From a virus (taxonomy: Duplodnaviria; Heunggongvirae; Uroviricota; Caudoviricetes): 9,822 nt of DNA. The notes under the pieces are model-generated. The model did not search any database. It saw only the letters and a program-made list of their open reading frames with translations, and was not told the origin of the DNA. This document shows positions 1-9,822 of the stretch, piece by piece. The position numbers and the translations under genes were made by a program. Location of the stretch: the IMG/VR virus record IMGVR_UViG_3300015182_000005; one strand, written 5' to 3'. How positions within the stretch are numbered: position 1 is the first letter of the stretch; every line of letters starts with the position of its first letter.

Positions 1-2
1 GT

Positions 3-110
3 ATCGATCCGGAAGCGTATCTGCGCCATATCCTGAGCGTACTGCCGGAATGGCCTTCCAACCGAGTTGATGAACTCCTGCCATGGAACGTAGTACTCAC
101 CAATAAATAA
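3..110 (+). CDS. IS66-family transposase, C-terminal fragment (5' end lies outside the window)
   Basis: + strand frame 3 reads IDPEAYLRHILSVLPEWPSNRVDELLPWNVVLTNK then TAA at 108-110. The ...AYL..VL.....NR..ELLPWN ending matches my recollection of IS66-family transposase C-termini. The frame is open to the window edge. Confidence 0.8.
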   Translation: MDPEAYLRHILSVLPEWPSNRVDELLPWNVVLTNK

Positions 111-140
111 GCGTCAATACGGTGCTCCGTTGACGCTTAC
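111..140. repeat. Putative IS66-type terminal inverted repeat (right end), with an internal 9-bp palindrome AAGCGTCAA / TTGACGCTT
   Basis: GCGTCAATACGGTGCTCCGTTGACGCTTAC; outer end is 5'-GTAAGCG on the complementary strand. Exact inner boundary of the repeat cannot be set without the other IS end. Confidence 0.55.
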
Positions 141-3100
141 CCTGACCCCAAGAGAGCCGTCCGCTGCCCGTGTCAGTGGCATGATTGCTTCAGGCCCGGC
201 CTCGCCCATCAACCCGGCCCCCTTCGCAAAAGCAAAATACGTCGGTGTATCCACAATAGTGTTACTGTAAGCACTCAGATTTGCCGATGTGTAAACACCA
301 CCTTTTGCGTTTGCCACTGCCCCCGAAATCCATCCGCCGACCGTACCAAGCCACCCTCCGGCACCGGAGAGTGATTTCAGTCCGTTAACAATGGCTGCAT
401 TCATCAGAATTTTTGAAACTTCCCGGAGAACTGAACTCCCCCAGTTCCTCCAGTCCACAACATTTCCGGCCAGTGCATCGGAAATATTTGATACCAGCCC
501 GTCCATAGTGGAAACGACAGCATCTGCCGCCTGCGAAGCATAATCGGTGGCACTGTCTGCCCAGTTGGTCAGCCCCTCCTGGAGTCCTGCATTCCAGTTA
601 TTACGTAAAGCATCGGCCTTTGCATAATAATCCTGCTGATCGCTGAGACGCTCTTCCAGATATTTTTTATTCAGTTCTTTCTCCTGTTTCCACAGGGCTT
701 CTTCAATTTCTCCGGCCTGATACTGTCTCAGCAGCTCGTTATTTTTCTGCTCAAACTCATGCCGGATACTCCACATTTCCTGGAGTCGTTCACGCATCCG
801 TGAGCCTTCACCATATCCCAGTAACTGCGCGTCGTTAGACGCCCGGGTACTGGCATTACTGTCCGCCAGGCTGCTTTCATACGCAGCAAGCTGCTCACGA
901 ATCTTTTTCTGGTCGATGAGTGCTGCATTCTGCAAAAGCGTTTTTTTCTGCGCTTCTGACAGGGTTGATAATTCGCCCTGACTGACCTGATATTTCATCT
1001 TAGCCAGTTCAGTATTCTGCCCTGCCAGTGCTATCTGTTCTTTTTGCTGTTTAATCAGCCGTTTATAAATATCTTCTGTTTTTTCCGCTTCGGTCTTTTT
1101 ATGCGCTTTGGGTTTATTTGCCTGGTTATTTCGCCAGGCATCCAGTGAGTTATTGATATAATTCTGTCTGGCTGTCTGATACGCCTCTCCCACAAAGCCA
1201 AGATCATCCGCAGCATAGCCCAGTCGAGCACGCTCACGCGCTTCCCCCTTAAGGCGGGACAGAGCCAGTTCGCGCTTGCTGTTATTCAGTGCGGTCTGCT
1301 GTTTATCATCCAGGGTTGCCTGTGGTAGCCGTAACGGTACATTCACCAACCCCTGTCGCTGCTGAAGTAATTCATTACCAAGCCCAAGAAGGCGATTAAA
1401 CTCGGTATGCTGCCCATTCATGATCAACAGGGACTGATACGCTTTGTTTTGTTCCGCCGCCTGTTGACGGATCAACGCAACCCGCCGCTCCTCCAGCCCG
1501 GCAAGCACATCCTGAATGGATTGCGCTTTGCCCTGCATTTGTGTGAGACGGGACTGTTCAACTGCCAGTTGATTTGTTGCTTCTGCAAGCCCTTCTGTGA
1601 CTGTTTTTACCGACGTCATGTGGTTAATCATAAAACCGTTATCGGTTGTCCAGCCCGGGTTTGCCAGCACATACTGATAGCCAGCAATTTTTTCCTGTAA
1701 GGATTTAATCTTACTTTTCTGCTCGTCAATTAACCTGTTTTGCTCATCAAGTGCCTGCCGCGTCTTTTCCTCATTATCTGACGCTTCAGGAAGCGACATT
1801 GCCGACGTTTTCTGGCGAATTTCGTCGATTGTTGCGGCATACTGGCGTGCAGATTCTCTGGCCTGCTCCTGATTCTGATACATCGTGTACCAGGCCGTCG
1901 CCCCCAGCATGACGAGTCCCGGCACACCACCAACCAGCCCCAGCGCACCACTTAACAGACGACTCCCCACTGACGTGACAGTATTCAGCGTTGTCTGCGC
2001 CGCTGTTCTGGCCGCAATATTACGGGTAAGTGACGCCTGAGCAGCTGTCAGCTTCGCTTCTGCTGCGGCCTGCCTTTCGGTACCGCGAGCAGCAACAACC
2101 GCCTGTTGCGCACGATAAACCGCCGCACGCGCTCTGGCGGTTGCTATCTGTGTCCCCCGAAGTTGCGCTTCAGCAAGAGCCACTTCGTTTCTGGCTGCAG
2201 TAATTAATCCGGCAGTTGCAGATCCAGCAGACGACGCCATATTGCCAAAATATCGGGCTACCCCGACGGCAACCAGTGCGCCAGCTGCAGCAGCCACGGT
2301 ATCAATATTGTCTGCAACACCATTCAGCACACCGGAGAGTGTCTTTGTCACTCCGCTTGCCTCGTTCGCACCACCAACCCAGGCCATAAAGGCGTTTTCA
2401 ACTTTGGTTGCAGAGGATGAAACAGTATCAGGCATTGCTGCATATTCATCACGCAACGCCCCAAGCTGACTAATCAGTGCAGGAACAACCTTATCGGCGG
2501 TCAGTTTTCCGTTATCCGCCATGGCCTTCAGATCCTTACGGGCAACCCCCATTCCCGCAGCCAGCGCACGAATAACACGATCGCCGTTCTCATTCACCGA
2601 GTTAAACTCTTCACCGCGCAGCACTCCCTGCGCCAGTGCCTGACTGAACTGCATGATCACCGAACTGGCTTCTGCTGTACTGGCACCGGATAATTTCAGG
2701 CCCGTGGAGATCGCCTCGGTGACTTTCAGTACCTCCTCAGAACTGTAACCATACTCCCGCATGGAAGCTGCAGAACGGGCAAAAAGGCTGGCGTTATCAG
2801 AAAACGCCGTCCCCGTTCTCTGGCTGATCGCCATTAATTCACGCTGTGATGCCTGAAAATCATCACTGGACTGTGAGGCCTGCTTCAGACGGGCATTTAC
2901 TGAATTCCACTCATCGGCGAGAGAAATAAGATGACCGGTAGCAAAAGCCCCGGCAAATGCCCCCGCCATATTCAGTGCCGAAGATTTAGCTGTATTTATC
3001 TGATCCGTCACTTCTGCCAGTGCACGCCGCATTTCACGGGAGGCAGCAGCAGACTGTTGGCCTCCGTTCTGCATGGTGCGGTAGTAATCCTGCCCCATAC

Positions 3101-3185
3101 GCGAAGCCCGGGAGATCTCTGACTGGAATGACCGGGAGTTTGCCGAGATTTTAATAATCAGTTCACGTAATGTCGCCACACTCAT
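114..3185 (-). CDS. Tail tape measure protein (lambda gpH-like), 1023 aa as it stands; the last 8 codons and the stop are IS-derived, so the native C-terminus is probably missing
   Basis: Long ORF directly downstream of the G/GT chaperone pair. Ala/Gln-rich coiled-coil middle section, hydrophobic glycine-rich segments, and a C-terminal region (NWADSATDYASQ ... GEAGPEAIMPL) resembling the lambda H C-terminal region. Codons 140..117 (VSVNGAPY) and the TGA at 116..114 lie inside the IS terminus. Confidence 0.88.
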   Translation of the reverse strand: MSVATLRELIIKISANSRSFQSEISRASRMGQDYYRTMQNGGQQSAAASREMRRALAEVTDQINTAKSSALNMAGAFAGAFATGHLISLADEWNSVNARLKQASQSSDDFQASQRELMAISQRTGTAFSDNASLFARSAASMREYGYSSEEVLKVTEAISTGLKLSGASTAEASSVIMQFSQALAQGVLRGEEFNSVNENGDRVIRALAAGMGVARKDLKAMADNGKLTADKVVPALISQLGALRDEYAAMPDTVSSSATKVENAFMAWVGGANEASGVTKTLSGVLNGVADNIDTVAAAAGALVAVGVARYFGNMASSAGSATAGLITAARNEVALAEAQLRGTQIATARARAAVYRAQQAVVAARGTERQAAAEAKLTAAQASLTRNIAARTAAQTTLNTVTSVGSRLLSGALGLVGGVPGLVMLGATAWYTMYQNQEQARESARQYAATIDEIRQKTSAMSLPEASDNEEKTRQALDEQNRLIDEQKSKIKSLQEKIAGYQYVLANPGWTTDNGFMINHMTSVKTVTEGLAEATNQLAVEQSRLTQMQGKAQSIQDVLAGLEERRVALIRQQAAEQNKAYQSLLIMNGQHTEFNRLLGLGNELLQQRQGLVNVPLRLPQATLDDKQQTALNNSKRELALSRLKGEARERARLGYAADDLGFVGEAYQTARQNYINNSLDAWRNNQANKPKAHKKTEAEKTEDIYKRLIKQQKEQIALAGQNTELAKMKYQVSQGELSTLSEAQKKTLLQNAALIDQKKIREQLAAYESSLADSNASTRASNDAQLLGYGEGSRMRERLQEMWSIRHEFEQKNNELLRQYQAGEIEEALWKQEKELNKKYLEERLSDQQDYYAKADALRNNWNAGLQEGLTNWADSATDYASQAADAVVSTMDGLVSNISDALAGNVVDWRNWGSSVLREVSKILMNAAIVNGLKSLSGAGGWLGTVGGWISGAVANAKGGVYTSANLSAYSNTIVDTPTYFAFAKGAGLMGEAGPEAIMPLTRAADGSLGVRVSVNGAPY

Positions 3186-3195
3186 TCTCCGGACG

Positions 3196-3217
3196 AAAAA
3201 AAACCGCCGAAGCGGTT
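3196..3217 (-). terminator. Intrinsic-terminator-like hairpin plus U8 between GT and the tape measure gene
   Basis: Minus-strand RNA AACCGCUUCGGCGGUU followed by UUUUUUUU (A-run at + 3196-3203), then CGUCCGGAGA and the ATG at 3185. Confidence 0.55.
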
Positions 3218-3225
3218 ATGTTGAC

Positions 3226-3914
3226 TCACTGAGACACTATTAAAAGCGCGTTTTCCAGTCCGGCAAATGGATCTGAAGCGCCTTCTGTCTGCTCCTTCTC
3301 CCACTGAAGAAGCGCATCATTCAGTGACACTTTGACCCCCTGCGCACCGTAAATAGCTGAAACAATCTGGGCAGCCCGGAAATCAGCCCGTTCGTCCCCC
3401 AGCGGGCTGAACCTGTCAAATTCTGCCCACATCATGATTTCTGATGCGGACATTTCCCGGCGTAACTCTGACAATGTGCGCCCCATCCTGAGCGCCAGCA
3501 TCATCAGAAAACGCATCCCCGGAAGCGCTACTTTTTTTTAACCTCGCCGGCATCACTGATCAGTTCCAGAGACTGCCGAAGAAGCCGCGCATGCACCGGG
3601 CCATACACGGCAATCACCTGTTCACGATCATCCTCTGAAAATACGGGTTGCAGTCCGGTATCACACAGAACATCAATGAACAGTTCAACATCTGCCTCCA
3701 GATTTCGGCGGGCGCGCTCCGCAACGGATAACGGTGTCTCATCATCTTTTGCTTTAACGATCTCCTGCCAGCGCAACCAGGCTTCTGCAGAAGGTTCCCG
3801 TAACACAACCGTTGCTCCCTCCCATTCAGGCACATCAACGGTTTTATGGCGAAACCCCGACATCGTTGCCAGTGCCAGATTACGGATATTTTTAGTCATC
3901 ACATCCATCCTCAT
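3226..3914 (-). CDS. Tail assembly chaperone GT-like fusion made by -1 programmed frameshift (G frame 3914..3531, then -1 frame 3537..3226)
   Basis: G ORF ends ...GEVKKK-stop on the run GTT AAA AAA AAG TAG. The -1 frame is open from 3537 and continues (VALPGMRFLMM...) to TGA at 3226. Position directly upstream of the tape measure gene matches the conserved G/GT arrangement. Confidence 0.7.
3528..3914 (-). CDS. Tail assembly chaperone (lambda gpG-like), 128 aa
   Basis: ORF between the major tail gene and the tape measure gene. Start ATG overlaps the major tail stop (TAATG); an alternative start at 3899 has GAGG 9 nt upstream. Ends in the slippery A-run. Confidence 0.75.
   Translation of the reverse strand: MRMDVMTKNIRNLALATMSGFRHKTVDVPEWEGATVVLREPSAEAWLRWQEIVKAKDDETPLSVAERARRNLEADVELFIDVLCDTGLQPVFSEDDREQVIAVYGPVHARLLRQSLELISDAGEVKKK
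3531..3537 (-). promoter_or_regulatory. -1 ribosomal frameshift slippery heptamer A AAA AAG (the dnaX-type site)
   Basis: Minus strand 3537..3531 = AAAAAAG in the X XXY YYZ register of the G frame, 1 codon before the G stop. The -1 frame downstream is open for more than 100 codons. Confidence 0.65.
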
Positions 3915-4618
3915 TAACTGACGGTTACAGTGCAGGAAGTGGAGGTCACTTTGTTAACCGGGCTCGCTGAATCAGAAATCTCGCAGGTATACGCACCGGC
4001 ATCACCGGATGCTGCTGATGCCTTACTGAACGTTGCCGCCGTCTGTCCGGAAACAGGAGAACCACCTTTTTTCCAGGCATAAGAATAAGGCGGCACACCA
4101 CCCACAGCCTCAACCGCCATTTCAAGTTTCGCTCCGGAAGCAACCCGCAGCGTGCTTTTTAAATCGACCTTCACTTTCAGCTGCTCTGTCGTCAGCACAG
4201 GCTTACCTTTCAGGCGCAGAGAAAACGTTGCAGCCACAACACCATTGGTTCCTGCAGACCAGGTATGCTGACGCACCTCTGCCATAAAGGTAAATCCGTT
4301 GCCTGACGGAAAAATAACTTTAAAGCCATACGTGGTGTCATTGTCATAGGCACTGCGCAACGCGTTCTGGGCAGCATTCAGATAAAAGTTGCCTGACATG
4401 GAAATCTCTGAAGCAGCCCCAAGACCGTTAATATTTTCCTGCTCAACAGAATACAGCGTGGTGACATCAATATCCTGCTTTTGTCCTGCGGTAAACTGCA
4501 CCTCTTTGATTGTACAGCTCAGGCCAAGATAGCTGGCAGAATCCAGGGTTTCTGCTGTTACCGGTGCAGACGAAATCATAATTTTCGTCAGTTGCGAACG
4601 CTCAAAATTAGAGGACAT
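3914..4618 (-). CDS. Major tail protein with C-terminal Ig-like domain, 234 aa
   Basis: Position immediately upstream of the chaperone pair. AGGAG 6 nt before the ATG. C-terminal ~85 aa (GGVPPYSYAWKKGGSPVSGQTAATF...GAYTCEISDSASPV...CTVTVS) has the pattern of phage Ig-like domains. Confidence 0.8.
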   Translation of the reverse strand: MSSNFERSQLTKIMISSAPVTAETLDSASYLGLSCTIKEVQFTAGQKQDIDVTTLYSVEQENINGLGAASEISMSGNFYLNAAQNALRSAYDNDTTYGFKVIFPSGNGFTFMAEVRQHTWSAGTNGVVAATFSLRLKGKPVLTTEQLKVKVDLKSTLRVASGAKLEMAVEAVGGVPPYSYAWKKGGSPVSGQTAATFSKASAASGDAGAYTCEISDSASPVNKVTSTSCTVTVS

Positions 4619-4630
4619 ACTCGTCTCCTG

Positions 4631-4657
4631 AAAATAAAAAAACCCGCCAGCGGCGGG
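4631..4657 (-). terminator. Intrinsic-terminator-like hairpin plus U-tract between the tail completion gene and the major tail gene
   Basis: Minus-strand RNA CCCGCC-GCU-GGCGGG followed by UUUUUUUAUUUU, then CAGGAGACGAGU and the ATG at 4618. Confidence 0.6.
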
Positions 4658-4678
4658 TGGGTAAAATCATTAATGACC

Positions 4679-5023
4679 TCAGGCTATTACCTGGAATTCA
4701 AGCGTGGCTCTGCTCAGACGGGAGTCAGGATCATAACCCTGCGTTTTAGAAATAACGGAGGGTGCCAGTTTTCTTACCGCATCAAGCGCCTGCTCACGAA
4801 TATTATCTGCGTCATCAGGTACTGTCGCCCAGACATCGATCTGCACGGTAATTCTGGATTCAGCCTGCCCATCAAGCACATCAGATACCGTGTCAGACAC
4901 CACAGAAAACACCAGCCACGGCGGAGATACTGCAGGCTTTCCCTCCGTCAGCGGGACCACATAAGGATAAACCTGTCCTCCGGCCAGCTGAGACAACAGG
5001 GAATACAGTGTGCCCTCCCTCAT
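4679..5023 (-). CDS. Tail completion / tail component protein (DUF3168-like), 114 aa
   Basis: Position between the gp10-like gene and the major tail gene; sequence pattern resembles the DUF3168 family by recall. Start overlaps the upstream stop by 4 nt. Confidence 0.6.
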   Translation of the reverse strand: MREGTLYSLLSQLAGGQVYPYVVPLTEGKPAVSPPWLVFSVVSDTVSDVLDGQAESRITVQIDVWATVPDDADNIREQALDAVRKLAPSVISKTQGYDPDSRLSRATLEFQVIA

Positions 5024-5469
5024 TTACTTAAGACCTCATCAATAGCCTGATTCATTCGCTGTATGGCAACCTGCGCCGCCAGCTCCTCTGTCGTATCGAA
5101 AGCCGGGCGAATGAATGGATGCGCGGGCATGTTTATCGTTCCCAGCTCCACAAAGCGCCAGTAAAATGCATTTCGGGGATCGCTGGCTTTCATGCTGTTA
5201 TCACTGTTTCCGGTTCGCAGGTTCCGTCCGCGAATGTGGACACCCGAGATAATTTCCCCCCGACGCTTTGAACGCTGAGTGAGAACAACCACATTTTTCT
5301 TCAGTTTCCCGGTTCGCTCCGGCGCACGTTCAACAACTGCATCCCGCATAACTTCAGCACCGGCACGGGTGGCATCGCGCAGAACCTTATTGTTTTCTGC
5401 CCTGCTGAGCGTCTCCAAATCCCGTGCAATATCCGCCAGGCCGGAAAAATCAAGACTGAAATCCATCAC
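5020..5469 (-). CDS. HK97 gp10-like head-tail joining / tail component protein, 149 aa
   Basis: Contains ...GTINMPAHPFIRPA..., similar to the MPARPF-type motif I associate with the HK97 gp10 family. Syntenic position; start overlaps the upstream stop. Confidence 0.65.
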   Translation of the reverse strand: MMDFSLDFSGLADIARDLETLSRAENNKVLRDATRAGAEVMRDAVVERAPERTGKLKKNVVVLTQRSKRRGEIISGVHIRGRNLRTGNSDNSMKASDPRNAFYWRFVELGTINMPAHPFIRPAFDTTEELAAQVAIQRMNQAIDEVLSK

Positions 5470-5804
5470 ACATTCCCCTTCAGGCTGCAGAGTATTTCAA
5501 GCCGGGTAGCGCGTGCATCCGGTATTGGTGGACCTTCTATACCCAGAATGGCCCCTTTAAATGCACCGGTCAGCACTTTCAGACGTGAAGTCGCTGTCAC
5601 ATCGCGCCGGAATCTCATCCAGACTCTGACCGTAGCCTGAGCGGTTTCTGCTCCGCCTGAGATTATCTCCCTCCCGCTGATACCCTTAACTTCTGCCCAT
5701 ACGGTAGCTCCCTCCGTCACCGTCTCCACCGGATGCCCTGACGGAGAGCGGGCGGTGGTGACATTCAGAATAATTACGCGATCACGTAATCTGCCCGCCT
5801 GCAT
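5466..5804 (-). CDS. Head-tail adaptor / head closure protein (Phage_H_T_join-like), 112 aa
   Basis: RLRDRVII...VWAEVKGISGREI...VRVWMRFRRDV... pattern typical of phage head-tail joining proteins. Strong GGAGGAG between the upstream stop and the ATG. Confidence 0.65.
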   Translation of the reverse strand: MQAGRLRDRVIILNVTTARSPSGHPVETVTEGATVWAEVKGISGREIISGGAETAQATVRVWMRFRRDVTATSRLKVLTGAFKGAILGIEGPPIPDARATRLEILCSLKGNV

Positions 5805-5812
5805 GTCTCCTC

Positions 5813-6130
5813 CTACAAAGGAATAAAACGATAAGGCTCCAGCAGAGAAGAAAAACCAAACGGGACTGGTGCCTTACTGACATCTGAGGAATTTTCCCGG
5901 TTTTCGCACCAGTGCCCGACCAGCAACATGAGCGCCAGCAAAACATCATCAGCTATAAGCACCCCTTCAGGATCACCTTCCGGCACCGTCTCCTCATAAA
6001 GCTTACGGTTGATAAAATTTTCTGCCTTGCGGCAGGCAGCCCGGAAATACAGCATCAGTAACTCATCATCAGTTGCATCATCTGTATCAATACGGCACTG
6101 CGCCCTGAGTTTTTCCACTATTGCTGCCAT
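5813..6130 (-). CDS. Head-tail connector protein (phage gp6-like), 105 aa from the ATG at 6130
   Basis: MAAIVEKLRAQCRIDTDDATDDELLMLYFRAA... resembles gp6-like connector N-termini. AGGAG 6 nt upstream of the ATG at 6130. The longer 165-aa ORF in the track would overlap the capsid gene by 104 nt and has no ribosome-binding site. Confidence 0.7.
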   Translation of the reverse strand: MAAIVEKLRAQCRIDTDDATDDELLMLYFRAACRKAENFINRKLYEETVPEGDPEGVLIADDVLLALMLLVGHWCENRENSSDVSKAPVPFGFSSLLEPYRFIPL

Positions 6131-6163
6131 CAGAAACTCCTGCCCGCAACACTGTGCGGGCAT

Positions 6164-6185
6164 AAAAAAACCGCGTCGGCGCGGT
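6164..6185 (-). terminator. Intrinsic-terminator-like hairpin plus U7 immediately downstream of the major capsid gene
   Basis: Minus-strand RNA ACCGCG-CCGA-CGCGGU followed by UUUUUUU. A second hairpin GCCCGCA-CAGUGU-UGCGGGC at 6141-6160 abuts the connector AGGAG. Confidence 0.6.
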
Positions 6186-6206
6186 CTGTAACTGAACAAC
6201 GAGTGG

Positions 6207-7424
6207 TTATTTGCCAGTGAGCGCCTTGATGGCTGCCACATCTTCCAGCACACAGTCAAAACGATGGAAAGCCAGAAATGCCACCTGATCAAACTCAGCA
6301 TAACGCTCAACCAGACGTTTCAGTTCCATATAAGTAACGCGGCGAATGATAAAGCGGTTGAAATCCCCCAGGAAAATGAATTTTTTTCCAGTACCAATCC
6401 CGTCAATAGCCTGATCAATAACATAAGGGATCCCCAGCACAGTAGCCGGCGTACCGCCTGCAATATCCGGCAGCCATAACGGGCGTTTCTGTCCATCCTC
6501 CATCTCTTCAATAGTCTGCAATGTGGCATCATTGAATGCCCAGCGGTATTTCGGCCCACCACGATATGCCGGATCAATGGCATGTTTCAGGGCATTCATT
6601 TCTTTCCAGGTGAAAGCGGCAGAGGCTGCAGTCTGGATGGTTCCCGTCACCGACGCTGCCAGCCCTTTTGGCTGTAACGGTGATCCCGTTCCGGTCCCCT
6701 GAACCAGATATTTTGCCTCTCCACGACCAATACGCTGGGCAATACGGTTTGCCAGATAAGATTCAATATCCACCCCACTGTCCTGGAGCAGCTCATTGGA
6801 CACACGAATTATTTTTGATGACAGCTTTTTAGCCCCCAGAATAGCGGTCCCGAACGTCACATCCTGTTCCGTTGCGGCTGTATTTTCCGCCAGCAGTTCG
6901 CCCTCTTCAGTCGTGCCATCAGACGTTGACCAGGTGATATCCTGCCCGGTTGATGTGGTCAGAAGTTGCGCCACACTGGCAATCCCGCCATAAGCCTTCA
7001 TGGTGTCAATGATTTTGTTACGCATCTGCGTGGGCACCGTATATCCGCCCTGAGAATCCGTTGTTACACTCTGAGCCCGCAGTTCACGCATCAGATTACG
7101 CTCTTCAGCATTCAGTTCTGCAAATCCGGCACGCAGAAAACGGTTAAATGCCGCAGCACGCTTCTCTTCCACCGCCTTTTTCCCGTTCTCCGCCTCATTA
7201 TTCTGGCGCTCTTCCGGCCCGGACTCATCCACATATGCCTGATCCTGACGGCGCAACTCTTCTTCACGGGCGATTTGCTCATCCAGCGCATCCAGCTCAG
7301 CTTTCGCCCTGTTCCACTCAGCCCGTTGCTCATCAGTCCATGCGTTATCACCAATTTTTTCATGCAGTGCACGCATATCCTTTGCAATGGTGTTTCGTTT
7401 TTGCTTCATCTCATGAAGTTTCAT
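6207..7424 (-). CDS. Major capsid protein, HK97 fold, with N-terminal delta (scaffolding) domain, 405 aa
   Basis: Immediately follows the prohead protease with no scaffold gene. First ~115 aa are a highly charged coiled-coil-like region (delta-domain-like), followed by a capsid-like body. Confidence 0.88.
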   Translation of the reverse strand: MKLHEMKQKRNTIAKDMRALHEKIGDNAWTDEQRAEWNRAKAELDALDEQIAREEELRRQDQAYVDESGPEERQNNEAENGKKAVEEKRAAAFNRFLRAGFAELNAEERNLMRELRAQSVTTDSQGGYTVPTQMRNKIIDTMKAYGGIASVAQLLTTSTGQDITWSTSDGTTEEGELLAENTAATEQDVTFGTAILGAKKLSSKIIRVSNELLQDSGVDIESYLANRIAQRIGRGEAKYLVQGTGTGSPLQPKGLAASVTGTIQTAASAAFTWKEMNALKHAIDPAYRGGPKYRWAFNDATLQTIEEMEDGQKRPLWLPDIAGGTPATVLGIPYVIDQAIDGIGTGKKFIFLGDFNRFIIRRVTYMELKRLVERYAEFDQVAFLAFHRFDCVLEDVAAIKALTGK

Positions 7425-7438
7425 CGTCAGTAGTATCC

Positions 7439-8038
7439 TTATGCATTAAGAAGGGTCAAAAGGCGCTCACGCGCCATTCGTTCATTAACAGCTTTCTTCA
7501 GCGCACCACTCGCCCGCGCTTCCTGCCAGGCTTTCATTGAGCGGACACCGGAGTCTGCGTCCTGATAGGCCGGATATGTCACCGGGCTGACGTCATACAG
7601 ACGAGAAATGCGCGTGATTTCCCGGATAACAATCCCCTCGTCGTCTTCATACCAGCTCTCTCCGTCACTGGCGACACGAAACGCGAACGAGGACTGGTTA
7701 ATGTCACCACGCAACATTGGAGACAGCACCAGGTCACAAATAGTCGGAGTATCCGGTGCAACAATGTCATAACGTAAACCGCGTTCATCCACCGACAATG
7801 ACAATGTGCCGGCAGAACTTCGTCCGAGAATGAAATTAGGATCATGATTAAACAAGCCACGTACATCATCATTCAGTACATCATCAAAAGCCCCCGGCTT
7901 GATGATTTCACGAAATCCCCACAGAGGTTCTGAACGACTGTTAAATACCGAGCCATACCCCAGAATGTGGGTCGGGGCATTATCATATTGTTCCGCCCGC
8001 ACCTCCCCGCTGTAACAGCGCGTTTCACGATCATTCAT
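7439..8038 (-). CDS. Prohead maturation protease (HK97 family), 199 aa
   Basis: Position between portal and capsid. Motifs GYGSVFN, LFNHD (His) and INQSSFAF (Ser) are consistent with the HK97 prohead protease family. Start overlaps the portal stop by 8 nt. Confidence 0.82.
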   Translation of the reverse strand: MNDRETRCYSGEVRAEQYDNAPTHILGYGSVFNSRSEPLWGFREIIKPGAFDDVLNDDVRGLFNHDPNFILGRSSAGTLSLSVDERGLRYDIVAPDTPTICDLVLSPMLRGDINQSSFAFRVASDGESWYEDDEGIVIREITRISRLYDVSPVTYPAYQDADSGVRSMKAWQEARASGALKKAVNERMARERLLTLLNA

Positions 8039-9257
8039 CGTTCTTTTCCTCTGTGCCTTTCGTATCTTTAAAGTTATTCAACGGATTTGCTGCATTTACG
8101 CTGACCAGCATTTCATCCAGACCGTCAACCGGGTTCATATCCTCAAATGCCCTGGCTTCATTCCGACTCATCCAGCCATCTGTAATGGCAAAGTGATAGA
8201 ACTGCGCACGCTCCTGTGGGGTCCCACGGAGCAACCCCGTGAGGTTAAAACGAACGTAATACCCGGCAGCCCGTTCTGTACGGGTAAACAGGCGACGGTT
8301 AAGCTCCTGCTCCCAGTTCGCAACCCAGGGCATCATCGTGTAGCGAACAAACTGAATCGCCTGCTGCGTAATATTCGAAAATGTGGCTTTTTCCAGGTCA
8401 TTAATCATGTGCGCCGGGACATTAAAAATCCCTGCAATCATCGACCTGTTCAGCTTGGTCATATCAATGATCTGAGCATCCACCGGAGAAACTGTCAGAG
8501 CGCGGTAATCCAGTTGCGCAGGCAACAGCATGGTTTTATTTTCCTGGCTGCGAAGCGCTGTCACCGCCCGCTGCCACATATTTTTAAGCCTGCCCCAGCT
8601 CTGTTCGTTCAGTTCATTTTTCACAGAAATAATACCGGCAGGACGGGCATTACCGTTAAAAAAGGCGCTGGTATACTGCTGGCCACTCATTCCCATACCA
8701 ATGGTTTCAGCATGCTGCATGATCGGGCTCAGTCCCATTTTCTGATTGTTTCCCAGCGCCCTGATATGGATCATGTCGTCCGGACTTACCGCAAATGCAC
8801 CCTCTTCGTTATACACCCCGTAAGTATGACGCCCACCGGTGTTAAGTAACGTGGTTTCCCATGGCATACAGCATTCAAGGCTGGTAACCTCTCCACGACG
8901 ATTACGTTTTACCCACGTATAACCATTGCCCCACCCCAGCACATGACGCTGCTTCAGTTCCCGCCACTTATAGCTGGTCTGCCAGGCATTAGGTTCATCA
9001 TGAACGAGCCAGAACAACGGATGATCGCGTGCAGGCTGAACATGCTCATTCGTTTTTCGCATCACATGCAGGGGCATCTGAGCCACACTGGATGAAATAA
9101 CATAAATACAGGCATAGACAGCAGCCAGCTTCATGGATGTTTCCGGACTGACATACACATCCCGGGCAAAAATATTATCCGTCTCAGCGGCCTCTCCGGT
9201 TACCGGAACCGAGGGATTTTCCAGAGACTCACTGCGAAACAGAGCATCAAGAAGCAT
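8031..9257 (-). CDS. Portal protein (HK97 family), 408 aa
   Basis: Position downstream of the large terminase; size and N-terminal pattern typical of HK97-type portals. AGGAGA 5 nt upstream of the ATG. Confidence 0.85.
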   Translation of the reverse strand: MLLDALFRSESLENPSVPVTGEAAETDNIFARDVYVSPETSMKLAAVYACIYVISSSVAQMPLHVMRKTNEHVQPARDHPLFWLVHDEPNAWQTSYKWRELKQRHVLGWGNGYTWVKRNRRGEVTSLECCMPWETTLLNTGGRHTYGVYNEEGAFAVSPDDMIHIRALGNNQKMGLSPIMQHAETIGMGMSGQQYTSAFFNGNARPAGIISVKNELNEQSWGRLKNMWQRAVTALRSQENKTMLLPAQLDYRALTVSPVDAQIIDMTKLNRSMIAGIFNVPAHMINDLEKATFSNITQQAIQFVRYTMMPWVANWEQELNRRLFTRTERAAGYYVRFNLTGLLRGTPQERAQFYHFAITDGWMSRNEARAFEDMNPVDGLDEMLVSVNAANPLNNFKDTKGTEEKNDE

Positions 9258-9387
9258 GTTTTCTCCTCATGGACACTACCAGTGCATAAAGCAGCAACAA
9301 ACAGCCCGACAGCATCAGAGACGCTGGCAGACCTGCATACAGATAAACGCCAGCAGTGAGCAAACCGAAACCGATCAGCCCGGTCAT
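9247..9387 (-). CDS. Hypothetical 46-aa hydrophobic (two-helix membrane) peptide between terminase and portal
   Basis: ATG at 9387 to TGA at 9247 encodes MTGLIGFGLLTAGVYLYAGLPASLMLSGCLLLLYALVVSMRRKHAS: two hydrophobic stretches, a basic C-terminus, and CTG-rich enterobacterial-like codon use. No clear ribosome-binding site; below the ORF-track size cutoff. Confidence 0.35.
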   Translation of the reverse strand: MTGLIGFGLLTAGVYLYAGLPASLMLSGCLLLLYALVVSMRRKHAS

Positions 9388-9404
9388 ATCAGTAATAAGC
9401 TGTT

Positions 9405-9822
9405 TCACAGAATTAACAGGTCCTCATCAGGATCAAGCGTGGACAGAAAGTCATTCACGCCCCCGCCATTTACCAGAAAGCGGCTCATGGCCGTAAAAAG
9501 CGCAACAGGGCCGTCGATTTTGGCTTCAGGCGTGGATTTATTCGGGAAGATGTTGTCGTTTTTGTCCGGTTTTACCGTAACGTTAGACATCATCCAGTTC
9601 ATGACCGGATGATTGCTGTGATGGAAACGCCCGGCATAAACCAGTGATTCCGTTTCCTTCATGGCCTCTGACAGATTGCGGACCGTCTGCGGAACCTCCA
9701 CCAGCGGTATCCCTTCTTCAGCCAGTGCCAGGCTGAACTGCATTGCGCTCCACGGGTCAAATCCCAGTTCCCTGAGGTTTTCACCGCCAATCCATTCCAG
9801 TAAGTCACTTTTTATCTGAGCA
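9405..9822 (-). CDS. Terminase large subunit, C-terminal part (N-terminus lies outside the window)
   Basis: Frame is open from the window edge to TGA at 9405. C-terminal sequence ...VTVKPDKNDNIFPNKSTPEAKIDGPVALFTAMSRF... matches the conserved KIDG..A end of HK97-type large terminases. The track lists only the part from an internal Met. Confidence 0.82.
   Translation of the reverse strand, partial: AQIKSDLLEWIGGENLRELGFDPWSAMQFSLALAEEGIPLVEVPQTVRNLSEAMKETESLVYAGRFHHSNHPVMNWMMSNVTVKPDKNDNIFPNKSTPEAKIDGPVALFTAMSRFLVNGGGVNDFLSTLDPDEDLLIL

What the first reader, a model, noticed from the sequence alone, without database searches (positions are those of the whole stretch)
1..160. IS66-family insertion sequence end fused to the 3' end of the tape measure gene
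The + strand at 3-110 encodes an IS66-type transposase C-terminus (…ELLPWNVVLTNK-stop). The element ends at 140 with ...CGCTTAC, the reverse complement of the GTAAGCG terminus typical of IS66. From 141 the minus strand is tape measure coding sequence, and the ORF runs 8 codons into the IS (VSVNGAPY) before stopping at an IS-internal TGA. The tape measure C-terminus and the downstream tail tip and fibre genes have therefore probably been displaced to the far side of the IS, or lost, which would make this a tail-defective prophage. Only one junction is visible, so the number of missing residues is unknown.
Basis: partly seen in the sequence, partly recalled or inferred. Interest (0 to 1): 0.75.

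Follow-up and report, generated by a model that had tools for sequence, protein, structure and literature searches.

The report
ISEc23 insertion truncating a prophage tape-measure gene
A common E. coli jumping gene (ISEc23, IS66 family) has landed near the end of the tail tape-measure gene of a lambda-like prophage, removing the last 62 amino acids and probably disabling tail assembly; this is an ordinary way for prophages to decay.

Summary
Window 1-140 is 140/140 identical to the right end of ISEc23 (IS66 family), ending in the canonical ...CGCTTAC. From 141 onward the window is 100% identical to an intact lambda/HK97-like E. coli prophage (phage vB_EcoS-813R8 and many complete genomes). The junction falls after codon 1013 of a 1075-codon tape-measure gene. 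Sixty-two C-terminal residues are lost and replaced by eight IS-encoded residues (VSVNGAPY) and a TGA.

The lost segment aligns to lambda gpH ~789-849. That stretch includes the helix that docks on the gpI plug in the tail tip, so a tail defect is a reasonable inference.

The same fusion protein occurs on two other public short-read contigs, so the junction is real. It is absent from 5,426 complete E. coli genomes.

The window stops 140 nt into the IS, which is k-1 for MEGAHIT's k=141. This looks like an assembly break at a repeat.

The far junction could not be found. Simple insertion (13 of 19 reference ISEc23 copies carry a perfect 8-bp duplication) versus IS-mediated deletion or rearrangement therefore stays open.

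This is a known element in a known prophage, producing a routine inactivation. Interest is low.

The parts
1..140 (+). Right-hand 140 nt of ISEc23 (IS66 family). The rest of the 2532-bp element lies beyond the window's left edge.
   Evidence: It is 140/140 identical to L002 3501-3640, the end of an annotated ISEc23 copy. The alignment shows the window following the IS up to base 140 and the intact prophage from 140/141.
3..110 (+). Last 35 codons of the ISEc23 DDE transposase (TnpC), plus the TAA stop at 108-110.
   Evidence: Translation. Pfam PF13817 DDE_Tnp_IS66_C, E 4.2e-10. The ENA gene call on L003 carries the same Pfam family.
117..140 (.). Right terminal inverted repeat of the IS, ending ...CGCTTAC.
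   Evidence: Inverted repeat I1 in the reference copy spans L002 1107-1132 and 3617-3642 (26 nt, 85%). The outer 2 nt of each arm are flank. Window coordinate = L002 coordinate - 3500.
108..139 (.). Subterminal hairpin of the IS (TAAGCGTCAA...TTGACGCTTA). On the minus strand it is followed by UUUAUUGG, which is terminator-like for transcripts entering the IS from the phage side.
   Evidence: Plus-strand RNA folds at -17 kcal/mol, z -5.3, 0 of 200 shuffles as good. Minus-strand RNA folds at -19.6 kcal/mol, z -3.0. Inverted repeat I25. Function is inferred only.
141..148 (.). CCTGACCC: the target 8-mer expected to be duplicated on the far side of the IS.
   Evidence: These are the first 8 bases after the IS end and correspond to L001 12002-12009 in the intact gene. 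13 of 19 reference ISEc23 copies have a perfect 8-bp duplication at this position. The second copy was not observed.
114..140 (-). IS-encoded tail of the fusion ORF: 8 codons (VSVNGAPY, 140-117) and the TGA stop (116-114).
   Evidence: Translation. BLASTP identity to the intact protein ends at ...GSLGVR.
141..3179 (-). Tape-measure gene, codons 1-1013 of 1075 (PGAP GTG start at 3179; an in-frame ATG lies at 3185).
   Evidence: It is identical to WP_000224003.1 over residues 1-1013. Pfam TMP_3, Phage_HK97_TLTM and Tape_meas_lam_C are all retained. The DNA is 100% identical to intact prophages.
3226..3899 (-). Tail assembly chaperone genes G (3528-3899) and T (3226-3504), with an A8 slippery run at 3532-3539. 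This is context showing the usual G/T-then-tape-measure gene order.
   Evidence: Annotation of the identical region in L001. Pfam Phage_TAC_1 and Phage_tail_T on L003. Sequence and both reading frames.
3914..9822 (-). Rest of the late operon. In order: major tail protein, tail completion protein, HK97-gp10-like protein, head closure protein, connector, major capsid protein, prohead protease, portal, a small ORF, and the 3' part of the large terminase, which is cut by the window end. All ORFs are intact.
   Evidence: ORF list. Annotation of the identical prophage. 100% identity to phage vB_EcoS-813R8.

Best explanation
A copy of ISEc23 (2.5 kb; IS66 family; tnpA-tnpB-tnpC) transposed into the tape-measure gene of a lambda/HK97-like siphovirus prophage of E. 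coli, between codons 1013 and 1014 of 1075. Its transposase genes point against the phage late operon.

Shown:
- The gene now encodes residues 1-1013 plus eight IS-encoded residues, then stops at a TGA inside the IS.
- The 62 residues removed align with the lambda gpH C-terminus.

Inferred from lambda structures:
- That segment includes the helix which, as a trimeric coiled coil, sits on the gpI plug inside the tail tip.
- The truncated protein therefore probably cannot be anchored in the tip complex that initiates tail assembly.
- If the tip genes M, L, K, I and J are still present, they now lie behind 2.5 kb of IS read in antisense, and that stretch begins with a terminator-like hairpin.
- The prophage is therefore probably unable to make infectious tailed particles by itself.

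The window ends inside the IS because short-read assemblers cannot cross a multi-copy repeat. The most probable far side is the other IS end, a second copy of CCTGACCC, the last 186 coding bases of the tape-measure gene and then the tail-tip genes. This was not observed.
For: IS identity and terminus.

Phage side: 9682/9682 identical to intact prophages in complete genomes, and 100% identical to phage vB_EcoS-813R8.

Position of the break and the residues lost.

The junction is real and recurrent. The exact 1021-aa fusion protein is found on ENA ERZ27315463 k141_6347 (3 mismatches to the window) and on a Logan SRR6795035 contig (identical over the 6762 bases compared). Both carry the same junction.

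Assembly break. The IS portion is 140 nt in the window, 141 nt in the k141 contig and 30 nt in the Logan contig, which is about k-1 if Logan assembles at k=31. The IS is present at a median of 3 and up to 42 places per genome. The window's last 140 nt is also more widely shared than an interior 140 nt: 1006 places in 930 genomes against 653 in 634.

Function of the lost segment. phmmer aligns the intact C-terminus to lambda gpH 643-849 (PDB 8iyk_H, E 3.6e-9). gpH 818-849 forms a three-helix coiled coil on the gpI trimer in the tail tip (PMC10721106; PMC12617516).

Base rate for simple insertion: 13 of 19 ISEc23 copies with both ends visible have a perfect 8-bp duplication.
Against: The left junction was never seen.
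- It is absent from IMG/VR, JGI metagenomes and GTDB genomes.
- Nine predicted junction or fragment ORFs are not on record.
- A homology search with the predicted junction ORF found no junction protein.

Six of the 19 reference copies lack a clean duplication, and three of those have unrelated flanks. ISEc23 copies therefore do take part in rearrangements.

Loss of tail function is inferred, not measured. In lambda the C-terminal ~14 kDa of gpH is cleaved off after assembly (PMC12617516), so its requirement concerns assembly and plugging, not the mature ruler. A Q-type antiterminated late transcript could read through the IS. Other lambdoid prophages in the same cell could supply a tape measure in trans.
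Confidence: 0.85

Rival explanations
1. The junction was made by an ISEc23 insertion, but the far side is no longer the rest of the prophage. Recombination between IS copies, or an adjacent deletion or inversion, removed or relocated the tape-measure 3' end and the tail-tip and fibre genes. The prophage would then be a deleted remnant rather than a simple insertion mutant.
For: At least three of 19 reference ISEc23 copies have unrelated left and right flanks. One 8-mer (GAATTTGT) appears as the left flank of one copy and the right flank of another, the signature of exchange between copies. E. coli genomes carry a median of 3 and up to 42 matching places. No left junction was found in any collection.
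Against: 13 of 19 copies are simple insertions with a perfect 8-bp duplication. The failure to find the left junction is weak evidence. The only assemblies known to carry this insertion are short-read contigs in ENA and Logan, which the DNA-pattern tools do not scan. The predicted left-junction ORFs are short, or overlap the next gene, so gene callers may not report them.
Confidence: 0.28
2. The junction is an assembly chimera that joins an IS end to a prophage gene not adjacent to it in any genome.
For: The window looks like a short-read (probably metagenome) contig that ends in repeats at both ends.
Against: Three separate assemblies made with different k (141 and 31) give the identical junction. 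The join is exactly at the biological terminus of the IS. The two partners share only 1 nt at the join, so a k-mer assembler had no repeat through which to mis-join them.
Confidence: 0.02
3. The truncated tape measure is still functional, so the prophage remains able to build tails. The argument would be that the C-terminal part of lambda-type tape measures is cleaved off anyway and the Pfam domains are intact.
For: All three Pfam domains, including Tape_meas_lam_C (residues 861-932), are retained with unchanged scores. Lambda gpH loses a C-terminal ~14-kDa peptide after tail assembly, and whether cleavage is needed is unknown (PMC12617516).
Against: In lambda the cleaved C-terminal fragment stays in the virion. 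Its residues 818-849 are the part resolved in contact with gpI in the tip. The aligned segment here (...IDARSARGLVDLIDSRVVSIMQSSRRDGGLYSA) lies entirely in the lost 62 residues. In addition, the tip genes are separated from their operon by the IS.
Confidence: 0.07

Closest known systems
ISEc23 (IS66 family insertion sequence of Escherichia coli)
   Same: The visible 140 nt are identical to annotated ISEc23 copies: the transposase C-terminus, the subterminal hairpin, the right inverted repeat and the ...CGCTTAC terminus.
   Different: Nothing differs in the visible part. Only 140 of 2532 nt are in the window, so the tnpA-tnpB-tnpC body, the left end and the duplication for this copy are unseen. 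This insertion site is not present in any of 5,426 complete E. coli genomes.
Escherichia phage vB_EcoS-813R8 (ON470619.1) and the identical prophage in many complete E. coli genomes (for example strains WCHEC005784, AR_0011, Y5; nearly identical in M217)
   Same: Window 140-9822 is 100% identical to these records. Gene order is the same: terminase, portal, protease, capsid, connectors, tail tube, G/T, tape measure.
   Different: Those records have an uninterrupted 1075-codon tape-measure gene followed by the M, L, K, I, J, lom and tail fibre genes. Here the gene is cut after codon 1013 by the IS.
Bacteriophage lambda gpH (tape measure protein; PDB 8IYK, 8IYL, 8K35)
   Same: The last 200 residues of the intact homologue align with gpH 643-849, ending in the shared ...RDGGL(Y/F)S motif. 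The Pfam Tape_meas_lam_C domain is present. The gene sits after a G/T frameshift pair.
   Different: This protein is longer than gpH (1075 against 853 residues), with an HK97-type central region (PF06120). In this window it lacks the segment equivalent to the gpI-binding C-terminal helix.

Membership tests
IS66 family / ISEc23 | Terminal inverted repeats that begin 5'-GTAAGCG (right end reads ...CGCTTAC). | tested here: met
   Window 134-140 is CGCTTAC. The 24-nt right repeat at 117-140 is identical to reference copies, whose left ends begin GTAAGCGTAAACTGACC. Only the right end is in the window.
IS66 family / ISEc23 | DDE transposase (TnpC) with the IS66 C-terminal element. | tested here: met
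   PF13817 DDE_Tnp_IS66_C, E 4.2e-10, 40.1 bits against a cut-off of 30, on the 35 visible residues. The sequence is identical to the end of WP_000080193.1 in L002.
IS66 family / ISEc23 | Three-gene body tnpA-tnpB-tnpC, about 2.5 kb in total. | not testable with these tools
   This lies outside the window. It is present in every reference copy that shares the identical 140-nt end, with element lengths of 2531-2533 bp in most copies.
IS66 family / ISEc23 | 8-bp target-site duplication flanking the element. | not testable with these tools
   The left junction is not in the window and was not found elsewhere. The predicted duplicated 8-mer is CCTGACCC (141-148). 13 of 19 reference copies show a perfect 8-bp duplication.
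IS66 family / ISEc23 | Near-identity to the ISfinder reference sequence of ISEc23. | tested here: inconclusive
   ISfinder is not available. There is 140/140 identity to elements that NCBI PGAP names 'IS66-like element ISEc23 family transposase'. The name therefore rests on RefSeq annotation.
Lambda-type tail tape measure protein (gpH-like) | Tape-measure Pfam domains (TMP_3, Phage_HK97_TLTM, Tape_meas_lam_C). | tested here: met
   E-values are 4e-58, 4.4e-93 and 1.7e-13. Positions are the same as in the intact homologue.
Lambda-type tail tape measure protein (gpH-like) | Gene located directly downstream of the G/T tail-assembly chaperone pair with a -1 slippery site. | tested here: met
   G lies at 3528-3899 and T at 3226-3504. 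An A8 run at 3532-3539 sits between the T-frame stop and the G-frame stop.
Lambda-type tail tape measure protein (gpH-like) | Complete C-terminus including the helix that contacts the tail-tip plug (lambda gpH 818-849). | tested here: not met
   The 62 residues that align with gpH ~789-849 are replaced by VSVNGAPY. The ORF is a truncated allele of a family member, not an intact member.

The most novel reading that the evidence does not exclude
The insertion might be more than decay. It could be a lineage-fixed event that keeps a head-and-tube-competent but tip-uncoupled prophage. Alternatively, the tape measure lacking its gpI-docking helix might still assemble tails, which would show that the helix is dispensable. 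The evidence does not exclude either. The insertion is shared by at least two or three samples with slightly different prophage sequences (3 SNPs), and every other late gene in the window is intact.
Probability: 0.05. Interest if true: 0.3.

Novelty: already known. Interest (0 to 1): 0.08.

Why it matters
It matters little beyond annotation. It shows that this contig's prophage should be scored as probably defective: the tape measure is truncated by 62 residues and the tail-tip genes are uncoupled or missing. It also shows that the contig edge is an assembly break at a multi-copy IS. IS insertions into prophage structural genes are a well-known route of prophage decay in E. coli. The one useful by-product is a natural truncation allele that removes exactly the segment equivalent to the gpI-binding helix of lambda gpH. 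If a carrier strain were available, it could test whether that helix is needed for tail assembly.

Tried and rejected
1. Extending the contig.
   - The 1023-aa ORF from the ATG is not on record.
   - The 1021-aa product from the GTG start is on two contigs, but both stop in the IS.
2. Right-junction 28-mer: no match in IMG/VR, GTDB genomes or JGI metagenomes.
3. Left-junction pattern with a variable gap for any duplication length: no match in the same three collections.
4. Exact look-up of nine predicted left-junction or C-terminal-fragment ORFs. These covered 7-, 8- and 9-bp duplications, contig-edge partials for k=31 and k=141, and an out-of-frame 99-aa ORF. None is on record.
5. Homology search with the predicted 75-aa junction ORF. 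It returned 12 short partial tape-measure C-termini, none of which starts at the junction.
6. A target-site motif. The first four ISEc23 copies suggested nCTGAnnn, which resembles the window's CCTGACCC. With 56 distinct flanks the resemblance disappears and targets merely lean towards A+T. I rejected it as a small-sample artefact.
7. Simple terminator scan of the IS. It found nothing above the shuffled expectation and missed the bulged terminal hairpin. That hairpin was found by folding.
8. Rfam at gathering thresholds: nothing in the window.
9. Literature search for the IS66 terminal motif: no useful source. The generalisation about 8-bp duplications and GTAAGCG ends for the whole family rests on my own knowledge, plus the ISEc23 copies measured here.
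Full report
**What is in the sequence.**
Window 3-107 on the + strand reads IDPEAYLRHILSVLPEWPSNRVDELLPWNVVLTNK, followed by TAA at 108-110. These 35 residues match Pfam PF13817, the IS66 transposase C-terminal element, above the curated threshold. The longest ORF in the window is 114-3185 on the minus strand. It encodes a 1023-aa protein that ends ...MPLTRAADGSLGVRVSVNGAPY, with its TGA stop at 116-114.

**Identity of the left 140 bases.**
megablast of 1-145 finds 14,875 places in 4,586 of 5,426 complete E. coli genomes. They lie under features annotated 'IS66-like element ISEc23 family transposase'. One copy, from strain EC5931, was fetched as L002. The element there is 2532 bp and carries tnpA, tnpB and the transposase. 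It starts GTAAGCGTAAACTGACC and ends ...CCGTTGACGCTTAC. Window 1-140 equals its last 140 bases exactly.

To fix the terminus independently I collected further copies: three from RefSeq and 66 IMG/VR loci that contain the right-end 25-mer. Nineteen distinct copies had both ends visible.
- Thirteen have a perfect 8-bp direct repeat immediately outside GTAAGCG...CGCTTAC.
- One has a 7-bp offset repeat.
- Two have an odd left end (2506 bp).
- Three have unrelated flanks.

The expected duplicated 8-mer is CCTGACCC (141-148).

**Identity of the rest.**
Window 141-9822 is 100% identical over all 9682 bases to prophages in many complete E. coli genomes. In all, 629 genomes cover at least 80% of it. 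It is also 100% identical to Escherichia phage vB_EcoS-813R8, ON470619.1.

In strain M217 (L001) the region is annotated, in order, as: small and large terminase, portal, HK97-type protease, major capsid protein, connectors, Ig-domain major tail protein, chaperones G and T, a 1075-aa tape measure protein (WP_000224003.1), then minor tail proteins M and L, a C40 peptidase (K), tail assembly protein I, tip protein J, a Lom-family protein and a tail fibre.

The window's tape-measure ORF is identical to that protein through residue 1013, counting from the PGAP GTG start at window 3179. It then diverges. The intact protein continues AIGDVNGGGGFVYSPVYHISIQNQGSNGEIDARSARGLVDLIDSRVVSIMQSSRRDGGLYSA. 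So 62 residues are lost and 8 IS-encoded residues are gained. A five-way alignment shows the window following the IS up to base 140 and the intact prophage from base 140/141, with a single shared C at 140.

**Is the junction real?**
No complete E. coli genome contains it: 0 of 5,426 have a place covering at least 80% of window 1-600. No phage record does either. However, the exact 1021-aa fusion protein is on record on two public contigs.
- ENA ERZ27315463 k141_6347 is 9792 bp and has 3 mismatches to the window.
- The Logan SRR6795035 contig is 6762 bp and identical over the 6762 bases compared.

Both show the same junction. The join sits at the biological IS terminus, and the partners share only one base there. 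A k-mer mis-assembly is therefore not credible.

**Why only one junction is visible.**
The window holds 140 nt of IS, the MEGAHIT-style k141 contig holds 141 nt and the Logan contig holds 30 nt. That is about k-1, if Logan assembles at k=31. It is what a de Bruijn assembler leaves when a unique flank runs into a repeat. The IS is multi-copy in most genomes, with a median of 3 places and up to 42.

The right end of the window lies inside the large terminase gene. Its last 140 nt is more widely shared than an interior 140 nt: 1006 places in 930 genomes against 653 in 634. This suggests that the right end is also a repeat or mosaic boundary. The window is best read as a whole short-read contig, and its left edge says nothing about what lies beyond.

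**The far side.**
I could not find it.
- A left-junction DNA pattern that allows any duplication length gave nothing in IMG/VR, JGI metagenomes or GTDB genomes. Neither did the right junction.
- Nine predicted left-junction or fragment ORFs are not on record.
- A homology search with the predicted junction ORF returned only unrelated partial C-termini.

These negatives are weak, because the samples known to carry the insertion are in ENA and Logan, which the pattern scans do not cover. The base rate from reference copies is 13 of 19 with a clean duplication and at least 3 of 19 clearly recombined. On that basis I put simple insertion at roughly 0.7 and IS-mediated deletion or rearrangement at roughly 0.3.

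**Likely consequence.**
All three Pfam domains of the tape measure are retained. The lost 62 residues align with lambda gpH ~789-849, sharing the terminal ...RDGGL(Y/F)S (PDB 8iyk_H). In lambda virions, gpH residues 818-849 form a three-helix coiled coil. It sits on the gpI trimer, which plugs the tail tip (PMC10721106). A later study assigns these residues to the cleaved C-terminal fragment gpHC, which stays bound to gpI (PMC12617516).

By inference, the truncated protein cannot dock in the tip complex. From my own knowledge of lambda tail assembly, that complex is the initiator on which the tube polymerises.

In addition, any remaining tip genes now lie behind the IS. On the minus strand the IS begins with a stable hairpin followed by UUUAUUGG. 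This is a plausible intrinsic terminator, although a Q-antiterminated late transcript might ignore it. A self-sufficient tail is therefore unlikely. This is inferred rather than shown, and other lambdoid prophages in the same cell could complement.

**Comparison and novelty.**
The element is another copy of a known IS. The prophage is a known, widely distributed one, and IS disruption of prophage morphogenesis genes is a familiar mode of prophage decay. Only the insertion site is new to the complete-genome collection. I rate this as already known and of low interest.

Noticed in passing
window 108-139 (both strands): The ISEc23 right end contains a strong hairpin (TAAGCGTCAA...TTGACGCTTA; -17 kcal/mol, z -5.3). 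It starts at the transposase stop codon and uses the terminal repeat itself as one arm. On the minus strand it is followed by UUUAUUGG, so it could terminate transcription entering the IS from outside. The simple terminator scan missed it because the stem is bulged.
   Followed up: partly
window 3528-3545, minus strand: The chaperone gene G ends ...GAG GTT AAA AAA AAG TAG. The T reading frame opens right after its own TAA at the start of the same A8 run. This is the classic layout for a -1 programmed frameshift producing a G-T fusion, here on a run of eight A.
   Followed up: partly
window 9683-9822 (right edge, inside the large terminase gene): The last 140 nt occur in about 50% more genomes and places than an interior 140-nt piece (930 genomes and 1006 places, against 634 and 653). 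The independent ENA contig breaks 31 nt away. This looks like a mosaic or repeat boundary shared with other prophages, and it explains the contig end.
   Followed up: partly
window 7669, 8030, 8053, compared with L003 (ENA k141_6347): Three single-base differences separate two contigs that share the identical IS junction. They fall in the protease/portal region, where strain M217's otherwise identical prophage carries a frameshifted protease pseudogene. This suggests that the insertion is inherited within a slightly diversified lineage, or that this segment is a recombination hotspot.
   Followed up: no
L002 1101-1108 and 3641-3648 (E. coli EC5931, ISEc23 in the DUF1097 gene next to yahB/yahD): This reference copy is flanked by a 7-bp direct repeat (CCTGCGG) rather than the usual 8 bp. 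The eighth base differs whichever way the repeat is framed.
   Followed up: no
IMG/VR loci L008-L073: The 8-mer GAATTTGT is the left flank of one ISEc23 copy and the right flank of another. Three complete copies have unrelated flanks. This is evidence that ISEc23 copies inside prophage regions recombine with each other. Two further copies show the left-end motif 26 nt closer than usual (2506 bp).
   Followed up: no
(protein search output): A 75-aa query that includes 64 residues identical to the tape-measure C-terminus returned only 12 short partial proteins. It returned none of the full-length ~1075-aa tape measures that certainly exist. The word-index prefilter seems to have missed them, so the negative results of that search should be read cautiously.
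   Followed up: no
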